DNA of 64,000 bases from assembly GCA_017396395.1 (NCBI GenBank), contig JAFQMF010000013.1:41161-105160 (forward strand), read 5' to 3'. The stretch comes from Clostridia bacterium (GTDB taxonomy: Bacteria; Bacillota; Clostridia; RUG12999). The stretch's first letter is position 1, and every line of letters starts with the position of its first letter. This document shows positions 40 to 57,683 of this stretch, in pieces. Below the pieces are notes generated by a model. That model had not been told where the DNA came from. It made no database searches and was given only the letters and a program-made list of their open reading frames with translations. Position numbers and translations under genes: made by a program.

Positions 40-288
40 ATTTTAATAAAAAGGCTATGACGGAAAGAGTAGCTTAGGATTCGCATTTAAAGAGAGAGAA
101 ACATTTGCTGGGAGTTTCTTAATGTGCCCTTAGTGAAGACCATTCCCGAGCTGCAGTGCCCAAAATTACAGTAAGTGCTGCCGTAGCACCCTGCGTTAAA
201 GGTGAAATTAAGTGAAATTCAAGGTGGAACCGTGCAAAAAGCACCCTTGTCTGCGGGATTATTCCCATATGACAAGGGTTTTTTATTT
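40..288 (+). promoter_or_regulatory. T-box riboswitch leader (Thr specifier ACC) with intrinsic terminator
   Basis: AGAGA-containing stem I region; GAAGACCATT specifier context gives ACC followed by a purine; T-box sequence AAGGTGGAACCGTGC at 222-236; terminator hairpin 244-278 followed by TTTTTTATTT; sits upstream of thrS. Confidence 0.75.
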
Positions 289-23310: not shown

Positions 23311-23385
23311 TGGCACCCCTGACCGGAATCGAACCGATAACTAACCCTTAGGAGGGGTTTGTTATATCCATTTAACTACAGAGGC
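23311..23385 (-). tRNA. tRNA-Arg (anticodon CCU)
   Basis: manual cloverleaf: acceptor GCCTCTG/CAGGGGT (two GU pairs); D-arm GTTA-AATGGATA-TAAC; anticodon stem AACCC/GGGTT with loop CTCCTAA; T-arm ATCGG-TTCGATT-CCGGT; encoded CCA. Confidence 0.75.
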
Positions 23386-28759: not shown

Positions 28760-29953
28760 ATGGCTAATATAAATAACAGAATGATGGAACTGGGAAAGGT
28801 TCGCTCGGTAATCCGCGAAACCTTTGAATATGGTAATAAAAGAGCAAAGGAAATCGGCAGAGAAAATGTCTATGACTTTTCTTTAGGCAATCCAAGTGTT
28901 CCGACTCCTGAAATTGTTGATAAGGAAATGGTAAATTTAATTAATGACAATACTGTTGCAGTTCACGGATATACCTCTGCTCAGGGTGCAGAGCCTACCA
29001 GAATTGCTATAGCTCAGGATATAAACCGCAGATTTTCCGCCGGCGTTACAAAGGATGATATTTATATGACCTGCGGTGCAGCTGCATCTCTTACAATTTC
29101 TATTTCCGCTTTATGTAACAAAGGAGATGAAATTATAGCTATTGCTCCCTTCTTTCCTGAATATAGGGTTTTTGTGGAATCTGCCGGAGCAAAGCTTGTG
29201 GTAGTGCCTGCTGATACAGAAAATTTTCAAATTAATTTTAAAGAGTTATCCAGACTTATTACACCTAAAACAAAAGGTATAATTATAAATACTCCCAACA
29301 ATCCTACAGGTGTTGTATTTTCTGAAAATACTATAAACCGTCTTTGTGATATTCTTCGAGAAAAATCAAAGGAATTTGGGAATCCTGTATATCTTATTAC
29401 AGATGAGCCTTATCGTGAGCTTGTGTATGATACTGATGCAAAGGTACCTTATCTTATTAACTGCTATGACCACACTCTGGTATGCTATTCTTACAGTAAA
29501 TCCCTTTCTCTTCCAGGCGACAGAATAGGTTATATTGTGGTTTCCAACAAAATGCCTGAACATGAGGATATTTATGCGGCAGTTTGCGGTGCAGGCAGAG
29601 CACTTGGTTTTGTGTGTGCTCCTTCCATTATGCAAAGGGCAATTCTTCCTGCTCTTGGAAAAACCTCTGACCTTTCTGTATATAAAAAGAACAGAGACCT
29701 TTTGTACGAGTCACTTACAAAAATGGGTTATACCTGTGTACATCCGGATGGTGCATTTTACCTGTTTGTAAAATCCCCTGTTCCCGATGCATCTGAGTTT
29801 TGCTTAAAGGCAAGAGAGTATGATATTCTTCTTGTTCCCTCTGACAGTTTTGGCTGTACAGGATATGTAAGAATTGCATACTGCGTAACAACCGAAATGA
29901 TACAGCGTAGCCTCCCTGCATTTGAAAAATTGGCAGAAAGCTATGGGTTATAA
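28760..29953 (+). CDS. pyridoxal-phosphate-dependent aminotransferase, class I/II (aspartate/aromatic aminotransferase-like)
   Basis: fold type I aminotransferase pattern including the Lys-containing YSYSKSLSLPGDRIGY. Confidence 0.88.
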   Translation: MANINNRMMELGKVRSVIRETFEYGNKRAKEIGRENVYDFSLGNPSVPTPEIVDKEMVNLINDNTVAVHGYTSAQGAEPTRIAIAQDINRRFSAGVTKDDIYMTCGAAASLTISISALCNKGDEIIAIAPFFPEYRVFVESAGAKLVVVPADTENFQINFKELSRLITPKTKGIIINTPNNPTGVVFSENTINRLCDILREKSKEFGNPVYLITDEPYRELVYDTDAKVPYLINCYDHTLVCYSYSKSLSLPGDRIGYIVVSNKMPEHEDIYAAVCGAGRALGFVCAPSIMQRAILPALGKTSDLSVYKKNRDLLYESLTKMGYTCVHPDGAFYLFVKSPVPDASEFCLKAREYDILLVPSDSFGCTGYVRIAYCVTTEMIQRSLPAFEKLAESYGL

Positions 29954-29954
29954 G

Positions 29955-29988
29955 AAAAAAAGCCGAGATTTATCTCGGCTTTTTTTAC
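29955..29988. terminator. bidirectional rho-independent terminator
   Basis: AAAAAAAGCCGAGATTTATCTCGGCTTTTTTT. Confidence 0.8.
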
Positions 29989-31070
29989 GCTACTTTATTT
30001 TCTCCGTTTGCGTAGTTTATAAAAACTCCCTGCTGTACATTATAGCAATATACGCAAAAAGACAAGCCTTTCCCCTTATCTTCTACTGAATAGGCTTCCA
30101 TTAAAACACCACTTGCTACAAGATTATCCCCCTGAAAAACAGGAGTTACTCTATACATAACGTGATTTCCTGTTTTGTCAATATAGCTGTCCACCATATT
30201 TTCAAAGGGTAACATTCCTTCCACGTTCATATACCTTGTGCCGGTAATTAAATTACGGGGATTGGCATTTTCTCCTGTTAACTGAAATCCCAGAAGGTGA
30301 CATCTGTTATAAAGGTATTTTCCCGAAATGAAATCATATTGTCTGTTTTTCCACCCTGTAGGCTTAATACTGCTTATATTCCCTCTTTTTTCAGTTGGCA
30401 TTGTATCCAAGGATACAGAAGCCACACATACATCGCATCTTCCAAGACCATCTAAACTGCTGTAATATTCAAAAGAGGCAGGAATAATTTCATAATCCTT
30501 AAAAAAAGGTTTATTATTATTTATTTTTATATACGCACTTTTGGAGTATTCTTTTAACTCTCCCAAAAGATAATCGTATTCCCCCTGCTGGAAAAGGTCA
30601 CGGATAATGTAAACCTTTTCTGTAGCTTCGTCCCATGCCACCCCAAGATTAAAGCTCTCTGCAATAAAACGGATGGGAAGCATCGTCCTGTCATTATAAA
30701 CAGAAGGAGCAACATCCAAAGTAAACAAGGCTCCGTTTAAATAAGCTTTTTTACTGTCTATAATAAGCTTTATAGTATCATTTTCAAGAGTAAGAACAGC
30801 CGTTTTCTCTTTTCCTTTCCAGTCCACCTTGCCACCAAAGGCTTCAATAATAGCACGAACAGGCACTAATGTTCTGCCTGTTTTTATTATAGGCTCTGTA
30901 CCTCTGCCTGGGTCAATTTCCTGATTTTCTCCGTTTACTGCCATTAAAGGATTGCCAATCTGCATACTTATTACAACATCTTCAGGCTTTTGGGATGCAA
31001 TTACATGAGGAGATAAAAGGAGGAAGCATATTAAAAATGCAAATACTCTATAAATTCTGTTTTTGTTCAT
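29985..31070 (-). CDS. secreted DNA/RNA non-specific endonuclease (EndA/Endonuclease_NS_2-like) fused to a copper amine oxidase N-terminal stalk domain
   Basis: signal peptide MNKNRIYRVFAFLICFLLLSPHVIAS; CuAO-N repeat RTLVPVRAIIEAFGGKV / RTMLPIRFIAESFNLGV; nuclease block YNRCHLLGFQLTGENANPRNLITGT aligns to the FDRGHLLGYAL...NPKNI region of EndA. Confidence 0.78.
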   Translation of the reverse strand: MNKNRIYRVFAFLICFLLLSPHVIASQKPEDVVISMQIGNPLMAVNGENQEIDPGRGTEPIIKTGRTLVPVRAIIEAFGGKVDWKGKEKTAVLTLENDTIKLIIDSKKAYLNGALFTLDVAPSVYNDRTMLPIRFIAESFNLGVAWDEATEKVYIIRDLFQQGEYDYLLGELKEYSKSAYIKINNNKPFFKDYEIIPASFEYYSSLDGLGRCDVCVASVSLDTMPTEKRGNISSIKPTGWKNRQYDFISGKYLYNRCHLLGFQLTGENANPRNLITGTRYMNVEGMLPFENMVDSYIDKTGNHVMYRVTPVFQGDNLVASGVLMEAYSVEDKGKGLSFCVYCYNVQQGVFINYANGENKVA

Positions 31071-32554: not shown

Positions 32555-33232
32555 TTAAAGTATGCCAAACAAAATAAACCCTACGGTATTTACACCAAAA
32601 TTTGCAAACATATGCACTGCCCAAGAGGTATATATACTCTCCTCTTTTTCATCTAGAAAATTAAATATCAGTCCTCCTGCAAAAAGTCCTGCAAATAGTA
32701 TCGGCAGTACCCATAAATCAAACATTATGGCAAGCATCCCTGTGTGATACAACGCAAACATACCTGCACTGAACATATGGGAAAATTTTCTTCCTCCAGC
32801 TTCCTTCAGATTTATAAAACCAACGCCCCTGAAGAAGAATTCCTCCAGAAAGGAATTTATAAGGGAAATATAAAGAGAAACATATATAAAGTTGTTTCCG
32901 TTTACTCCGTGATTTTCCGTAAGTCCCGTTACAACACTTGAAAAGTCAATAAAGCCTTTTGTTAAAAAATATCCTCCAATTATTACAGCATAAATTCCTA
33001 CACCTATAATTACCGCCTTAAAAAAACTTGCTTTTTTTACAATAAACAGCTTTTTTAAACTCTCTGCTTTGTTTTCCCGCAAAAAATATATTGCAGGTAC
33101 AACTAAAAACAGTAATATTTTTATAAGGGATTTTGTTATATATTCAGGCTTTATAACTGCATCTACAGCTGACATTATAATAGATGACAGTATTACCCAT
33201 ATTATAATATAAATGCCTGTGTTTCTTTTCAT
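32555..33232 (-). CDS. CPBP-family intramembrane metalloprotease (CAAX protease / Abi)
   Basis: EExxFRG, FxxxH and HxxxN/F motifs (EEFFFRGVGF, FALYH, WAVHMFANF). Confidence 0.85.
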   Translation of the reverse strand: MKRNTGIYIIIWVILSSIIMSAVDAVIKPEYITKSLIKILLFLVVPAIYFLRENKAESLKKLFIVKKASFFKAVIIGVGIYAVIIGGYFLTKGFIDFSSVVTGLTENHGVNGNNFIYVSLYISLINSFLEEFFFRGVGFINLKEAGGRKFSHMFSAGMFALYHTGMLAIMFDLWVLPILFAGLFAGGLIFNFLDEKEESIYTSWAVHMFANFGVNTVGFILFGIL

Positions 33233-33299
33233 AATTTATTCCTTCTTTCAAAGGTTTTTATATTGTAAAATCAGGGAACGATTTAGATGACAACATTTT

Positions 33300-33495
33300 T
33301 CGTCGATATGCAATCTTTGATTGCTCGATATTTTTACTTCTTAAAATTGATATGTTTTTTCGGTCAATTCGTGAATTGCCCCTACAAAAACTCGATATGA
33401 TATAAATCTCGTTGCGTCAGCAACATATCGAGCCGTTAGGATATATCGCACCGCAAGGTATATCGCAAATTCCGTCAGGAATTTATATCGCTGAG
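33300..33495. repeat. quasi-palindromic intergenic repeat element, copy A (phased CGATAT / ATATCG motifs around a GTTGC-N-GCAAC core)
   Basis: 4 forward CGATAT copies (33304, 33326, 33349, 33392) and 4 reverse ATATCG copies (33424, 33443, 33460, 33485) at ~20-bp spacing; its reverse complement aligns with 56041-56200. Confidence 0.6.
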
Positions 33496-33575
33496 TTTAA
33501 TCGTTTCACGATTAAACTCATTATACCATACCACTTTCCCTTTTTCAATATTTCATTTCATAATTTAAATACATA

Positions 33576-33611
33576 TTAAAAACCTTGCAAGAATTCTTGC
33601 AAGGTTTTTGT
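33576..33611 (-). terminator. rho-independent terminator downstream of purC
   Basis: AACCTTGCAAGAATTCTTGCAAGGTT hairpin; T-run on the minus strand. Confidence 0.75.
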
Positions 33612-54104: not shown

Positions 54105-54352
54105 AATAAAAAATAGTCGTATAAGCTACGACTATCATTACTTTTCTATTATACCCCTTAATGACAGGGGGAATATTTTCAAAAAGTAAGATAGCTCTCC
54201 GCTTAAAGCGACAACAAAGTAAATATTATTTTACTTTGCCAGATCAGACTTACGCCTCGCCTGTCTTCGGCACCTGTACCTTTCTTTACCGCTGACTTTT
54301 GCGAAAGCCCTTTTATAGCGGAAATACTATTTACAAAATGCACCTCTATCAC
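54105..54352 (-). promoter_or_regulatory. lysine riboswitch (L-box) with intrinsic terminator, leader of dapA-dapB-lysA
   Basis: on the minus strand: GATAGAGGTGC P1 start; conserved GGTGCCGAAG; closing GGAGAGCTATC; then terminator ATAGTCGTAGCTTATACGACTAT plus TTTTTTATT immediately before the dapA RBS. Confidence 0.7.
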
Positions 54353-54396
54353 TTTCTATATAATACCATATTTTTTTCTTTTTGTCAACTGTTTTA

Positions 54397-55762: not shown

Positions 55763-55791
55763 TTGACAAACTTTTTTATACGTGGTATAAT
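55763..55791 (+). promoter_or_regulatory. consensus sigma-A promoter (TTGACA-17-TATAAT) of tRNA-Thr/tRNA-Tyr operon
   Basis: perfect hexamers with 17-nt spacer, 33 nt upstream of tRNA-Thr. Confidence 0.65.
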
Positions 55792-55824: not shown

Positions 55825-55900
55825 GCTGGTGTAGCTCAATTGGTAGAGCAGCTGATTTGTAATCAGCAGGTCGCGGGTTCGAGTCCCATCACCAGCTCCA
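55825..55900 (+). tRNA. tRNA-Thr (anticodon UGU)
   Basis: GCTGGTG acceptor pairing with CACCAGC; GCTCAATTGGTAGAGC D-arm; anticodon loop TTTGTAA; GGTTCGAGTCC T-arm; encoded CCA. Confidence 0.85.
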
Positions 55901-55922
55901 ATTTTTTGTTCAAATTTAATAT

Positions 55923-56007
55923 GGAGAGGTTCCCGAGTGGCCAAAGGGGACAGACTGTAAATCTGCTGCTTATTGCTTCGGTGGTTCGAATCCACCCCTC
56001 TCCACCA
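55923..56007 (+). tRNA. tRNA-Tyr (anticodon GUA), long variable arm
   Basis: GGAGAGG/CCTCTCC acceptor; anticodon loop CTGTAAA; 13-nt variable arm; GGTGGTTCGAATCCACC T-arm; encoded CCA; 85 nt like Bacillus tRNA-Tyr. Confidence 0.88.
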
Positions 56008-56043
56008 GAAAAAAGCGTACTGAAAATTCAGTACGCTTTTTTC
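56008..56043 (+). terminator. rho-independent terminator of tRNA operon
   Basis: AAAAGCGTACTGAAAATTCAGTACGCTTTTTT. Confidence 0.85.
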
Positions 56044-56200
56044 AGCGATATATACTCCGTACGCGATATATCTTGGATGCGATATGTTGCCTTACTGCAA
56101 CGAGAAAAGGAATTTATATCATATCGCAACAAGCGAAGTGGAGTTATATCGAATTTGCAAAGCAAATATATCGCACGAGCGTTAGCGAGTATATCGCCTA
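56041..56200. repeat. quasi-palindromic intergenic repeat element, copy B (3 GCGATATA + core GTTGC-N-GCAAC + 4 TATATCGC)
   Basis: motif copies at 56045, 56063, 56079 (forward) and 56122, 56146, 56167, 56191 (reverse); aligns to the reverse complement of 33300-33495. Confidence 0.6.
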
Positions 56201-56330
56201 AACATTGTCATCCAAACCATTCTGTTCTTCCAGAAAAAGTAAAACTTAAAACTCGCACCTTTAAATATAATCAGTCCCGAACACAAATGTGTTCGGGACT
56301 TTACTTTTTCAGCTATAAGCTTATTAAAGA

Positions 56331-57683
56331 TTAAACTACACCCTGAGCCTTCATAGCTTCTGCAACCTTAATAAAGCCTGCAATATTAGCACCTGCTACA
56401 AGGTCGTCTCCAAGACCGTATTCGTTAGCTGCCTTAACTGAAGATTCAAAAATATTCTTCATAATGCTCTTAAGTTTCTGGTCAACTTCTTCAGCAGACC
56501 AGCTGTAACGCATTGAGTTCTGAGACATTTCAAGACCAGAAACAGAAACACCGCCTGCGTTAACTGCCTTAGAAGGAGCTATGATAACGCCCTGCTCTTT
56601 AAGATAAGCAAGAGCTTCGTTTGTTGTAGGCATATTAGATACTTCAACATAGTATTTAACGCCGTTTGCAACAATCTGTTCAGCTTCTTTCATACCAACT
56701 TCGTTCTGGGTTGCACATGGCATAATAATATCAACCTTTGTTCCCCAAGGTTTCTGACCTGCATAGAAAGGAACACCGAACTTATCTGCATAATCCTGAA
56801 CTCTGTTTCTGCAGGATGCACGCATTTCAAGCAAGAAGTTAATCTTTTCTTCTGTGTTGACACCTGCTTCATCATAAATATATCCGTCAGGACCTGAAAT
56901 TGTAACAACCTTACCGCCAAGCTCTGTAATTTTCTTAGCTGTACCCCATGCAACATTACCAAAGCCTGAAAGTGCAACTGTTTTGCCTTTAATATCATCT
57001 CCAAAATAGTTAAGCATTTCTACTAAATAGTAAACTGCACCGAAACCTGTAGCCTCAGGACGGATAAGAGAACCACCATAAGGAATACCTTTGCCTGTAA
57101 GTACACCTGTAAACTCATTTCTGAGCCTTTTATACTGACCAAATAAGTAACCAATTTCTCTTGCACCAACACCGATATCCCCTGCAGGAACGTCAAGGTC
57201 AGCACCGATATGTCTGGAAAGCTCTGTCATAAAGCTCTGGCAAAATCTCATTACTTCTGCGTCGGATTTTCCCTGAGGGTCAAAGTCAGAACCACCTTTA
57301 CCGCCACCCATAGGAAGTGTGGTAAGGCTGTTTTTAAATGTCTGTTCAAAGCCAAGGAATTTGATAATACCGGAATATACATTGGGAGCAAATCTAAGAC
57401 CTCCCTTGTAAGGACCGATAGCTGAGTTAAACTGAACTCTGAAACCTCTGTTTACCTGTACTTTACCGTTATCATCCACCCAAGGAACACGGAAAGTAAT
57501 CTGTCTTTCAGGCTCTACCATTCTGTCAATAACCCCTGCCTCTACAAGGTCAGGTCTCTGTTCAACAACAGGCTCAATAGATTCAAGAACTTCTGTTACA
57601 GTCTGAATAAATTCAGGTTCTCCTGCGTTTCTCTTCTTAACTGTTTCTATAAGATTAAGAAGATATTCATTTTTTAATGCCAT
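56331..57683 (-). CDS. gdhA: NADP-specific glutamate dehydrogenase
   Basis: Glu/Leu/Phe/Val dehydrogenase motifs KGGLRFAP and GxGNVA; ~450 aa. Confidence 0.95.
   Translation of the reverse strand: MALKNEYLLNLIETVKKRNAGEPEFIQTVTEVLESIEPVVEQRPDLVEAGVIDRMVEPERQITFRVPWVDDNGKVQVNRGFRVQFNSAIGPYKGGLRFAPNVYSGIIKFLGFEQTFKNSLTTLPMGGGKGGSDFDPQGKSDAEVMRFCQSFMTELSRHIGADLDVPAGDIGVGAREIGYLFGQYKRLRNEFTGVLTGKGIPYGGSLIRPEATGFGAVYYLVEMLNYFGDDIKGKTVALSGFGNVAWGTAKKITELGGKVVTISGPDGYIYDEAGVNTEEKINFLLEMRASCRNRVQDYADKFGVPFYAGQKPWGTKVDIIMPCATQNEVGMKEAEQIVANGVKYYVEVSNMPTTNEALAYLKEQGVIIAPSKAVNAGGVSVSGLEMSQNSMRYSWSAEEVDQKLKSIMKNIFESSVKAANEYGLGDDLVAGANIAGFIKVAEAMKAQGVV

What the first reader, a model, noticed from the sequence alone, without database searches (positions are those of the whole stretch)
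56041..56200. Copy B of the phased-TATATCGC palindromic element, directly after the tRNA-Thr/tRNA-Tyr terminator
Same element as at 33.3 kb, here compact: 3 forward GCGATATA, core GTTGCCTTACTGCAAC, 4 reverse TATATCGC. It sits between the tRNA operon terminator and the convergent gdhA terminator. tRNA-proximal placement is typical of integration hot spots and of insulator or terminator-associated repeats. The shared location behind strong terminators suggests either a role in termination or insulation, or preferential insertion into terminator hairpins.
Basis: seen in the sequence. Interest (0 to 1): 0.6.

Follow-up and report, generated by a model that had tools for sequence, protein, structure and literature searches.

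The report
Orphan heptamer–hairpin array behind tRNA genes
The repeat behind the tRNA genes is a gene-less copy of a widespread, highly structured repeat element of gut Clostridia and their phages. Its complete copies sit directly in front of a small four-helix-bundle protein gene of unknown function, which gives a testable lead for both the protein family and the orphan 'Gut-1' RNA motif.

Summary
Window 56045-56197 (+) holds three GCGATAT heptamers, a central segment and four ATATCG(C/A) heptamers, each separated by a small hairpin. The locus at 33.3 kb is the same element on the other strand.

It is not a chance repeat, not part of the gdhA 3'UTR, and not a classical MITE (no target-site duplications). 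It belongs to a family with more than 120 hits in Clostridia gut MAGs and in phages. The modal form has 4 forward and 4 reverse heptamers.

The forward arm is a sub-threshold relative of Rfam Gut-1 (RF01706), whose function is unknown. New here: complete copies are followed, 14-19 nt after the last heptamer, by a PF05635/TIGR02436 four-helix-bundle (4HB) gene, the family of the 23S-rRNA intervening-sequence (IVS) protein and Avd. Each 4HB paralogue carries arrays with its own heptamer. 4HB genes fetched by protein similarity alone, from phages and from plasmids of five bacterial phyla, are also flanked by heptamer repeats, mostly inverted.

Best reading: a transcribed array whose hairpins loop out, so that the two heptamer runs zip into a duplex of about 28 bp. 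This array is the cis partner of the 4HB protein. Copy B is an ORF-less derivative lodged directly behind a tRNA operon. RNA versus ssDNA remains open, because the hairpin loops of the two arms are mirror images.

The parts
55825..56007 (+). Context: the tRNA-Thr(UGU) and tRNA-Tyr(GUA) operon. Its promoter lies at 55763-55791.
   Evidence: ARAGORN; Rfam; promoter scan scoring 12/12 with TG.
56008..56043 (+). h0: a perfect 17-bp palindrome (A-run, GCGTACTGA, T-run). It looks like the terminator of the tRNA operon and occupies the position of the family's hairpin h0, followed by CA and then F1.
   Evidence: Inverted repeat I1, 17 nt, 100% complementary. The same hairpin follows other tRNAs in L069, L073 and L108. 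The terminator scan did not call it, because the T-run is paired with the A-run in the maximal stem.
56045..56085 (+). Forward arm: GCGATAT at 56045, 56063 and 56079, with hairpins TACTCCGTA (56053-56061) and ATCTTGGAT (56070-56078).
   Evidence: Equivalent to units F2-F4 of the family (nhmmer; comparison with L155).
56086..56101 (+).
   Evidence: Homologous hairpins gttgccttacggcaac occur in L104 and L108.
56102..56120 (+). Linker GAGAAAA plus centre S2 (GGAATTTATATC). In full elements S2 is complementary to F1 plus the 5' arm of h1.
   Evidence: complementary in 65 of 99 elements.
56121..56197 (+). Reverse arm: ATATCG(C/A) at 56121, 56146, 56168 and 56191. Hairpins at 56128-56145, 56153-56167 (ATTTGCAAAGCAAAT) and 56175-56190 (ACGAGCGTTAGCGAGT, with tandem G.A).
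56203..56231 (+). Conserved tail CATTGTCATCCAAACCATTCTGTTCTTCC.
   Evidence: Shared with copy A, with L042, L069 and L121, and with a GTGAAAT-type element in L169. Function unknown.
56273..56300 (.). Bidirectional Rho-independent terminator: the end of a possible tRNA-trailer transcript and of gdhA.
   Evidence: called on both strands.
33262..33548 (-). Copy A: promoter TTGAAA-17-TATAAT (33548-33520), h0 (33519-33493), four forward units, centre (33410-33391), a degenerate reverse arm ending at about 33301, and the tail (33295-33262). A CPBP protease gene follows (33232-32555).

Best explanation
**What it is.** Copy B is an ORF-less ('orphan') member of a family of bipartite heptamer-hairpin arrays.

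**Anatomy (shown).**
- A variable hairpin (h0) comes first.
- A run of GCGATAT heptamers follows, each trailed by a short hairpin of variable sequence.
- Next comes a conserved centre.
- A run of the complementary heptamer ATATCGC follows, each again trailed by a hairpin.

**Folding (inferred from predictions and covariation).** The element is transcribed in the forward-to-reverse direction, here as the trailer of the tRNA-Thr/Tyr operon. The hairpins fold locally, which brings the heptamers side by side. The two runs then pair (F1:R4, F2:R3, F3:R2, F4:R1) into an interrupted duplex of about 28 bp, a ladder of four-way junctions.

**Gene link (shown by association).** In complete copies a PF05635/TIGR02436 four-helix-bundle (4HB) gene starts 14-19 nt after the last heptamer. 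Each 4HB paralogue has its own heptamer.

**Function (inferred).**
- The array is the cis-acting nucleic-acid partner of that protein.
- It probably serves as the protein's binding site, giving feedback control of translation, and as a processing or stability stem. This would parallel the 28-bp RNase III stem that brackets the homologous S23p ORF in 23S-rRNA intervening sequences (IVS).
- The cassettes behave as selfish modules that lodge behind stable-RNA genes and in 3'UTRs.
- Orphans such as copies A and B are decayed derivatives. They may still bind 4HB protein made elsewhere, or may simply persist as stable RNA structure.
For: **Family membership**
- A profile built from 49 canonical elements hits copy B (E = 3.9e-31) and copy A (E = 9.6e-26), and nothing else in the window.
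The modal form is 4 forward + 4 reverse heptamers.

**Structure**
- The spacers are hairpins: 1324 Watson-Crick pairs among 1381 scored stem positions in the forward arm, and 1572 Watson-Crick pairs plus 252 G.A in the reverse arm.
- RNAalifold predicts h1, h2, h3, the three reverse hairpins and F1:R4, F2:R3 and F4:R1. 27 of 49 predicted pairs show double compensatory changes.
- RNAfold of 53 elements gives the nested ladder in 25-33 cases per rung, with mean z = -5.6.

**Strand and transcription**
- In tandem-gene contexts the element is co-oriented 47 times against 4. h0 starts about 25 nt after the upstream stop codon.
- About 9 copies have their own TGnTATAAT promoter.
- Tandem G.A occurs 252 times against 6 C.T in reverse-arm stems.
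- At forward:reverse pairs, C-to-T changes (giving G.U) number 24, against 8 G-to-A changes.

**4HB link**
- The downstream gene matches TIGR02436 (86.7 bits) and PF05635 (78 bits).
- It is present in 20 of 120 loci.
- The Shine-Dalgarno sequence directly follows R4.

**Heptamer varies with the paralogue**

| Heptamer pair | Loci |
|---|---|
| GCGATAT (type A) | the family above |
| GTGAAAT / ATTTCAC | L169, L170 |
| GCTAAAT / ATTTAGC | L118, L051 |
| GTGATAT / ATATCAC | L100, L177 |
| ATGATTT / AAATCAT | L071 |
| GTGAAG / CTTCAC | L173 |
| contiguous CAATTGA | L176 |

**Generality**
- Ten of ten 4HB genes sampled on plasmids of Cyanobacteriota, Bacteroidota, Spirochaetota, Chloroflexota and Bacillota are flanked by short tandem repeats or inverted repeats, in most cases inverted heptamer arrays.
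- Among 16 loci fetched by protein similarity alone, 11 have a 6-mer repeated at least 4 times upstream and 8 of 15 have an inverted repeat of at least 10 nt. In 600 control ORFs these figures are 1.5% and 4.7%.

**Decay to orphans**
- A truncated 4HB gene is fused to the array in L052, and remnant 4HB start codons remain in L067 and L101.
- Four MAGs carry both a 4HB-linked copy and an orphan copy.

**Analogy**
- In the Coxiella IVS a 28-bp stem cut by RNase III brackets S23p (PMC4990558).
Against: - No 4HB gene lies in this 64-kb window, so trans binding at copy B is conjecture.
- Binding has not been shown for any family member. The heptamer-paralogue correspondence rests on 7 heptamer types and about 30 loci.
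- The heptamers are almost invariant within the family, so forward:reverse pairing has little direct covariation. The flanking-base test was weak.
- Short forms with one forward heptamer and four reverse ones exist, as do forward-only arrays. Pairing is therefore not universal.
- Forward-arm hairpin loops are the mirror image of reverse-arm loops: TNC/TNNC on the transcribed strand against GNA/GNRA. A single sense RNA does not predict this.
- h0 of copy B looks like an efficient terminator, so the array may be poorly transcribed from the tRNA promoter.
- Single-sequence folds of copy B are only marginally better than shuffles (z = -1.3 to -1.95).
Confidence: 0.5

Rival explanations
1. The element works as single-stranded DNA. 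Each arm is an array of 'ATATCGC + DNA hairpin' units on the strand that runs 5'->3' away from the centre. A hairpin- and sequence-specific DNA protein (possibly the 4HB protein, or a host nuclease or recombinase) recognises these units during replication, transfer or recombination. This spreads and rearranges the cassettes.
For: - The loops are mirrored. 178 of 286 forward-arm loops are TNC/TNNC on the top strand, which is GNA/GNNA on the bottom strand, and only 1 is GNA on top. Reverse-arm loops are GNA/GNRA on top and none is TNC.
- In forward-arm stems A.C outnumbers G.T, 28 to 12.
- Many hairpins literally contain GCGAAGC or GCAAAGC. From my own knowledge, d(GCGAAGC) and C-GNA-G triloops are exceptionally stable DNA mini-hairpins.
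- Rearrangements fit slippage or recombination at the repeats: loss of one unit in copy B, deletion between GGAATTT repeats in the short forms, duplication of the forward arm on both sides of the 4HB gene, and tandem copies.
- In promoter-linked copies h0 overlaps the transcription start, so only its inner part can fold in that RNA.
Against: - The orientation bias with respect to transcription is strong, 47 to 4.
- The reverse arm abuts the Shine-Dalgarno sequence of the 4HB gene.
- G.U-type variants are favoured at forward:reverse pairs on the transcribed strand.
- No nuclease, Rep or recombinase gene is associated.
- There are no target-site duplications.
- Orthologous copies are conserved across species.
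Confidence: 0.2
2. The element is a generic 3'-end RNA structure, a terminator-associated insulator or mRNA/tRNA-precursor stabiliser, as REP/BIME elements are. It has no dedicated protein.
For: - It typically sits between a stop codon and a terminator.
- A terminator lies within 130 nt of the last heptamer in 42 of 107 copies.
- In the tRNA-linked subfamily h0 looks like a terminator.
- The element is hairpin-dense and thermodynamically stable.
Against: - Stability alone does not explain heptamers that stay invariant across orders of Clostridia and a phage while every stem varies.
- It does not explain the heptamer-specific association with 4HB paralogues.
- Only 10 of 107 copies have a T-run after h0.
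Confidence: 0.12
3. The element is a double-stranded DNA binding array (operator, centromere-like or attP-like) for a sequence-specific DNA-binding protein.
For: - The heptamers occur in inverted blocks around an AT-rich centre.
- Hairpin-less versions with contiguous heptamers exist (L176 and L181).
- tRNA 3' ends are classical integrase targets (my own knowledge).
Against: - Heptamer spacing is irregular in duplex form: spacers range from 7 to 41 nt.
- The spacers are under selection to be hairpins, with strand-specific loops and mismatches.
- No integrase or partition gene lies nearby.
- The 12-bp inverted repeat S1/S2 does not mediate inversion: the whole metagenome collection gave 2 hits to the flipped form, neither genuine.
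Confidence: 0.06
4. The element is a classical MITE, mobilised by a DDE transposase.
For: - It is small and has dispersed copies, including multi-copy MAGs with near-identical paralogues (L097 and L105).
- Its arms are inverted.
Against: - Flanking direct repeats are no longer than in shuffled flank pairs, except at tandem copies and in L007.
- No transposase is associated.
- Orientation is biased.
Confidence: 0.03

Closest known systems
Rfam RF01706, the Gut-1 RNA motif (Weinberg et al. 2010, PMC2864571)
   Same: - The architecture of the forward arm is the same: 'CA', then a conserved heptamer, a variable hairpin, a heptamer, a hairpin, and so on.
- The habitat is the same (gut metagenomes).
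- Gut-1 seed sequences carry the same centre and reverse arm in their flanks and follow a tRNA plus terminator.
- Forward arms of related GCGATAT elements score 25-47 bits against the model.
   Different: - The heptamer is GCGAUAU, not GUGAAAU or GUGAUAU.
- The window copies get no Gut-1 hit even at E<=1-10, and the gathering score is 50 bits.
- The Rfam model covers only three hairpins. The bipartite form and the downstream 4HB gene are not part of the description: the paper's supplementary note on Gut-1 says only that it is detected solely in human gut sequences.
23S rRNA intervening sequences carrying an S23p ORF (Coxiella, Leptospira; PMC4990558)
   Same: - The protein family is the same (PF05635).
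- The ORF is bracketed by complementary sequences. The Coxiella stem is 28 bp, which equals 4x7.
- The element lodges inside a highly transcribed stable-RNA operon.
- It is regarded as a selfish element that moves horizontally.
   Different: - The location here is behind tRNA genes or in 3'UTRs, not in 23S helices 9, 25 or 45.
- The arms are heptamer repeats interrupted by hairpins.
- Both arms usually lie upstream of the ORF.
- The window copies have no ORF.
- RNase III processing was not tested.
REP/BIME (REPIN) elements and their RAYT transposase
   Same: - They are short palindromic intergenic repeats at gene 3' ends.
- They are multi-copy, with within-genome homogeneity.
- A single protein gene is flanked by the repeats.
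- A conserved short motif lies next to a hairpin.
   Different: - REP stems are conserved in sequence. Here only the heptamer is conserved.
- The associated gene is a four-helix bundle, not an HUH nuclease.
Cyanobacterial STRR heptanucleotide tandem repeats (my own knowledge; the term occurs in PMC2670836 and others)
   Same: They are tandem heptamers. STRR-like heptamers (AATCCCC, ACTGGTC) flank 4HB genes on Planktothrix and Euhalothece plasmids.
   Different: They have no hairpin spacers and occur in a different phylum. No link between STRR and 4HB genes turned up in the one literature search made.
TRAP / (G/U)AG repeats and similar ring-protein / tandem-repeat RNA pairs (a works-like analogy from my own knowledge)
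   Same: An oligomeric protein would read several short tandem repeats in a leader next to a Shine-Dalgarno sequence.
   Different: There is no homology. The oligomeric state of these 4HB proteins is only suggested by 5 chains in each of PDB entries 2RLD and 2GSC. Binding is untested.
Avd of diversity-generating retroelements
   Same: Avd is a homologous four-helix bundle (PMC10053308). From my own knowledge, it works together with a structured RNA.
   Different: No reverse transcriptase or template and variable repeats lie near the arrays.

Membership tests
Rfam RF01706 Gut-1 | Covariance-model score at or above the gathering threshold (50 bits). | tested here: not met
   No Gut-1 hit in 55950-56350 at E<=10 or in the whole window at E<=1. 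Relatives score 25-47 bits. One bona fide GTGATAT array in L110 scores 63.4 bits.
Rfam RF01706 Gut-1 | Tandem hairpins of variable sequence separated by a conserved heptamer linker, starting with 'CA'. | tested here: met
   The heptamer differs (GCGAUAU).
Rfam RF01706 Gut-1 | Gut-metagenome habitat. | tested here: met
   Record titles of the 120 loci are gut or rumen MAGs.
Bipartite heptamer-hairpin array family (defined here) | Significant match to the profile of 49 canonical 4F+4R elements. | tested here: met
   nhmmer E = 3.9e-31 for copy B and 9.6e-26 for copy A.
Bipartite heptamer-hairpin array family (defined here) | Adjacent PF05635/TIGR02436 gene. | tested here: not met
   tblastn finds none in the window. 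The gene is present in 20 of 120 related loci, so the window copies are orphans.
23S rRNA IVS elements | Insertion in 23S rRNA helix 9, 25 or 45. | tested here: not met
   Copy B lies after tRNA-Tyr and copy A between purC and a CPBP protease gene.
23S rRNA IVS elements | Complementary termini forming a stem that RNase III cuts. | not testable with these tools
   A 4x7-bp interrupted duplex is predicted. Cleavage cannot be tested.
MITE | Target-site duplication of fixed length. | tested here: not met
   Flank comparison against shuffled flank pairs.
MITE | Presence/absence polymorphism at orthologous sites. | tested here: inconclusive
   Strain-level contigs are identical. The nearest gdhA and CPBP orthologues are not syntenic. 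The same tRNA-Thr/Tyr site carries a different 4HB cassette in L175.
REP/BIME | Conserved palindrome sequence within a genome and an associated RAYT gene. | tested here: not met
   Stems differ within and between elements. No HUH gene is among the neighbours.
Invertible DNA segment (inverton) | Both orientations of the segment between the inverted repeats occur in sequence data. | tested here: not met
   The pattern for the flipped form gave 2 hits in the metagenome collection, neither genuine.
CRISPR array | Repeats of at least 23 nt, unique non-palindromic spacers, cas genes. | tested here: not met
   The repeats are 7 nt and the spacers are hairpins.
Rho-independent terminator | GC-containing hairpin followed by a T-run. 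| tested here: inconclusive
   h0 (56008-56043) has T6 by direct reading, but the scan did not call it. The arrays themselves lack T-runs.

The most novel reading that the evidence does not exclude
Tandem heptamer arrays, with or without looped-out hairpins, together with PF05635/TIGR02436 four-helix-bundle proteins form one two-component selfish or regulatory module that spans several phyla and has not been recognised. An oligomeric 4HB protein would read its own heptamer repeats. The module would unite the orphan Gut-1 RNA motif, the S23p-bearing 23S rRNA intervening sequences, part of the cyanobacterial STRR heptamer repeats, and possibly the RNA-handling role of DGR Avd. Copy B would be a decayed satellite of this system at a tRNA 3' end.
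Probability: 0.3. Interest if true: 0.85.

Novelty: new variant of a known kind. Interest (0 to 1): 0.68.

Why it matters
Gut-1 has been a function-less candidate RNA since 2010. PF05635/TIGR02436 is a large protein family with solved structures, and it includes the IVS protein S23p and the relatives of DGR Avd, yet its role is unknown.

The observation that the two are physically coupled, with the heptamer changing together with the protein paralogue, turns both into a directly testable protein-nucleic-acid pair. It also suggests why these small genes turn up inside rRNA, behind tRNAs and between genes of operons.

For annotation, it explains a class of conspicuous repeats in gut Clostridia that current RNA-family libraries miss.

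Tried and rejected
1. **Chance or low complexity.** Rejected.
2. **Part of the gdhA 3'UTR.** Rejected. Five gdhA orthologues of 96-89% identity lack it.
3. **Conserved leader of the CPBP protease gene (copy A).** Four orthologues of 62-69% identity have no element.
4. **MITE with target-site duplication.** No excess of flanking direct repeats. The 18-nt repeat around the phage copy L007-1 and the 12-nt repeat around copy A are isolated cases.
5. **Inverton using the 12-bp S1/S2 inverted repeat.** The flipped form is absent from the metagenome collection.
6. **Known Rfam family at threshold.** None.
7. **Covariation of the bases flanking forward and reverse heptamers.** Weak and uninformative.
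8. **Search for the centre motif in viral contigs.** It returned only L007 plus coding-sequence chance hits. The three-heptamer pattern returned 31 unrelated tandem repeats and one genuine copy.
9. **Consistent neighbour genes other than 4HB and an rlmD-like methyltransferase.** None.
10. **PADLOC defence models and PHROG annotation for the 4HB protein.** Nothing useful.
11. **Literature on Gut-1, and on a possible link between 4HB proteins and STRR repeats.** Nothing beyond the original Gut-1 description.
12. **Considered by eye and dropped.** A sigma-D-like reading (TAAA-N15-GCGATAT) and a central extended -10 box for antisense transcription. Neither holds in the other heptamer types or in forward-only arrays.
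Full report
**1. The observation**

The 8-mer GCGATATA occurs seven times in the 64-kb window against 1.0 expected (0 of 100 shuffles reach 7). All seven lie at 33.44-33.49 kb or 56.05-56.20 kb. CGATAT/ATATCG sites cluster nowhere else.

Copy B reads as follows:

| Feature | Coordinates |
|---|---|
| tRNA-Tyr end | 56007 |
| Perfect 17-bp palindrome with A-run and T-run (h0) | 56008-56043 |
| 'CA', then GCGATAT | 56045, 56063, 56079 |
| Forward-arm hairpins TACTCCGTA, ATCTTGGAT, GTTGCCTTACTGCAAC | between and after the heptamers |
| Linker + centre GAGAAAAGGAATTTATATC | 56102-56120 |
| ATATCG(C/A) | 56121, 56146, 56168, 56191 |
| Three further hairpins | between the reverse heptamers |
| Tail | to about 56231 |
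| Bidirectional terminator shared with gdhA | 56273-56300 |

- Only 2 + 2 of the sites are exact 8-mers.
- The spacers are hairpins.
- The 33.3-kb copy is the same element on the opposite strand.

**2. A large family**

All are gut or rumen MAGs of Clostridia: Oscillospiraceae, Acutalibacteraceae, Ruminococcus, Christensenellaceae and others. A phage contig (L007) carries two arrays inside its late operon, one between terminase and portal and one upstream of the capsid gene.

The consensus order is:
- h0, then 'cAG';
- F1 GCGATAT, then h1 (AAATYCC-loop-GGRATTT);
- F2-h2, F3-h3, F4-h4;
- GAGA..GGRATTTATATC (centre);
- R1 ATATCGC-h5, R2-h6, R3-h7, R4.

The form with 4 + 4 heptamers is modal, in 56 of 143 site clusters.

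A profile of 49 canonical elements finds copy B (E = 3.9e-31, model positions 28-177) and copy A (E = 9.6e-26, full length), and nothing else in the window. Copy B equals the L155-type element minus the F1-h1 unit.

**3. Structure**

- The spacers are hairpins whose sequences differ between and within elements: 1324 Watson-Crick pairs among 1381 scored stem positions in the forward arm, and 1572 Watson-Crick pairs plus 252 G.A in the reverse arm.
- On the MAFFT alignment, RNAalifold predicts h1, h2, h3, the three reverse hairpins and the long-range helices F1:R4, F2:R3 and F4:R1. 27 of 49 predicted pairs show double compensatory changes.
- RNAfold of 53 elements gives the nested ladder in 25-33 cases per rung, with mean z = -5.6.
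- The centre is complementary to F1 plus the 5' arm of h1 in 65 of 99 elements, with covariation (AAATCTC/GAGATTT, AAATCAG/CTGATTT). This is a possible alternative pairing.
- The inverted repeat S1/S2 does not drive DNA inversion. A pattern specific to the flipped form found two hits in the metagenome collection, neither genuine.

**4. Context and strand**

- Between tandem genes the element is co-oriented with them 47 times against 4. The upstream gene is co-oriented 96 times against 17, and h0 starts about 25 nt after its stop codon.
- A terminator follows within 130 nt in 42 of 107 copies. About nine copies, including copy A, have their own TGnTATAAT promoter just before h0.
- Tandem G.A mismatches (5'-CGA..GAG-3') are specific to the transcribed strand of the reverse arm, 252 against 6 C.T.
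- At forward:reverse pairs, C-to-T variants (G.U) outnumber G-to-A variants, 24 to 8.
- No target-site duplications are seen.

**5. Copy B is not part of the gdhA 3'UTR**

Contigs carrying the identical gdhA protein have the identical element. gdhA orthologues of 96-89% identity have different downstream genes and no element.

The element travels with tRNA 3' ends instead. Members of the same subfamily begin 0-1 nt after the CCA of tRNA-Cys, -Thr, -Met or -Glu, or just after tRNA-Leu. All share the 'A-run, hairpin, T-run, CAG' junction, sometimes with the very same hairpin as in the window.

**6. Relation to Gut-1**

Forward arms of related loci hit Rfam RF01706 (Gut-1) at 25-47 bits, below the gathering score of 50. 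One GTGATAT array in L110 reaches 63.4 bits. The window copies get no hit.

The flanks of the published Gut-1 seed alignment show the same centre and reverse arm, and a preceding tRNA plus terminator. The paper gives no function.

**7. The new link**

The ORF that begins 14-19 nt after R4 in many loci is a four-helix-bundle (4HB) protein: TIGR02436 at 86.7 bits and PF05635 '23S rRNA-intervening sequence protein' at 78 bits. It is present in 20 of 120 loci.

Paralogous 4HB genes (47-50% identity) in the same contigs sit behind arrays of identical design but with other heptamers:
- GCTAAAT/ATTTAGC (L118, L051);
- GTGATAT-like (L100);
- AAATCAT upstream and ATGATTT downstream of the gene (L071).

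4HB genes retrieved purely by protein similarity show the same thing.
- **Viral contigs:** GTGAAAT/ATTTCAC, the canonical Gut-1 heptamer; GTGAAG/CTTCAC; and five contiguous CAATTGA with the reverse complement downstream.
- **GenBank phages:** MT835815 matches the Gut-1 seed BAAZ01025322 over its tRNA, array and downstream flank, apart from a few base differences, and continues into a 4HB gene.
- **Plasmids:**
  - Nostoc: (TAATTCG)x4 against (CGAATTA)x4, a 30-bp perfect inverted repeat.
  - Heptamer arrays also flank the gene in Planktothrix, Euhalothece, Gloeocapsa and Chlorohelix.
  - Bernardetia, Chondrinema, Treponema, Pseudanabaena and Monoglobus show other tandem or inverted repeats.

Against 600 control ORFs, the 16 protein-fetched loci are strongly enriched:

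| Criterion | 4HB loci | Controls |
|---|---|---|
| 6-mer repeated at least 4 times upstream | 11 of 16 | 1.5% |
| Inverted repeat of at least 10 nt between the flanks | 8 of 15 | 4.7% |

Within a protein type the heptamer is constant. Between types it differs.

Orphans appear to arise by loss of the ORF:
- L052 has the array fused to the C-terminal half of the gene.
- L067 and L101 keep only the first codons.
- In several loci the forward arm is duplicated on both sides of the gene.
- Four MAGs carry both a complete and an orphan copy.

**8. Interpretation**

In hairpin-less versions the heptamers are contiguous. In the Clostridial versions the hairpins loop out, which makes the heptamers contiguous only in a folded single strand. 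This favours a single-stranded functional form.

Four heptamer pairs give 28 bp, the size of the RNase III stem that brackets the homologous S23p ORF in the Coxiella IVS (PMC4990558).

PF05635 proteins are relatives of DGR Avd (PMC10053308). The two PDB relatives, 2RLD and 2GSC, have five chains per entry.

I therefore propose the following, as inference:
- The array is the cognate nucleic-acid partner of the 4HB protein.
- It is probably transcribed RNA that the protein binds next to its own Shine-Dalgarno sequence.
- It also forms a processing or stability stem.
- The cassettes are IVS-like selfish modules that exploit stable-RNA operons.
- Copy B is an ORF-less derivative.

**9. What does not fit**

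- Forward-arm loops are TNC/TNNC on the transcribed strand, that is GNA/GNNA on the other strand. Reverse-arm loops are GNA/GNRA. This mirror symmetry, and the many GCGAAGC-type mini-hairpins, would suit ssDNA. It keeps the ssDNA rival alive.
- Forward-only and short forms show that pairing is not universal.
- h0 of copy B may terminate most tRNA transcripts.
- No binding or expression data exist.
- No 4HB gene lies in this window.

**10. Verdict**

The element is a new variant (new heptamer, bipartite form) of the Gut-1 kind. The coupling to PF05635 genes appears to be unreported in the literature I could search.

Noticed in passing
window 56203-56231; window 33262-33295 (minus strand); L069, L042, L121; L169 upstream region: A conserved 'tail' (GCATCYAAACCRTTCGGCTCTT-like) follows the reverse arm in copies of different subfamilies, and even in a GTGAAAT-type element. 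Its function is unknown.
   Followed up: partly
all family members: Hairpin loops of the two arms are mirror images: TNC/TNNC in the forward arm and GNA/GNRA in the reverse arm, both on the transcribed strand. Tandem G.A mismatches occur only in reverse-arm hairpins.
   Followed up: partly
L007 1410-1590: The second array in the phage contig has the opposite arrangement: ATATCGA units first, then TCGATAT units. It lies directly upstream of the portal gene.
   Followed up: partly
L007 4315-4545: An 18-nt direct repeat (CCCGGCTAAGCGAGCCGC) that includes the stop codon of the upstream gene flanks the phage copy. It is the only clear case resembling a target-site duplication.
   Followed up: partly
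window 33215-33240 and about 33565-33580: A 12-nt direct repeat TAAATTATGAAA brackets the whole copy-A module, from promoter to Shine-Dalgarno sequence. The Shine-Dalgarno/ATG context of the downstream CPBP protease gene (GAAGGAATAAATTATGAA) is nearly identical to that of type-A 4HB genes in L046 and L087.
   Followed up: no
L177 (MT835815.1, 4112-5426): A published Gut-1 seed sequence (BAAZ01025322) corresponds to this phage record. There it lies between a tRNA-Arg and a 4HB gene.
   Followed up: yes
L183 (Planktothrix), L185 (Euhalothece), L181 (Nostoc), L187 (Gloeocapsa): Cyanobacterial 4HB genes are flanked by inverted runs of tandem heptamers that resemble the classical STRR repeats (AATCCCC, ACTGGTC).
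   Followed up: partly
L180, L184, L187, L188: 4HB cassettes sit inside or next to defence loci: between hsdS and hsdR (Monoglobus), between DUF1156 and a Swt1-HEPN gene (Gloeocapsa, Chlorohelix), and next to cas1 (Pseudanabaena).
   Followed up: no
L175 332-1045: The same tRNA-Thr(UGU)/tRNA-Tyr(GUA) pair as in the window is followed by a terminator, a long imperfect inverted repeat without obvious heptamers, and a 4HB gene.
   Followed up: partly
L110 3800-4150: An array mixes CGATAT and GTGATAT/ATATCAC units. The same contig also holds a pure GTGATAT forward-only array (57-136).
   Followed up: no
window 48-251; 54184-54356 (minus strand); 23311-23385 (minus strand): Ordinary features: a T-box leader, a lysine riboswitch upstream of the dapA/dapB region, and tRNA-Arg(CCU).
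   Followed up: no
window 29867-30070: A palindromic stretch gives weak sub-threshold Rfam hits on both strands (STnc430, HrrF). It is probably a terminator region.
   Followed up: no
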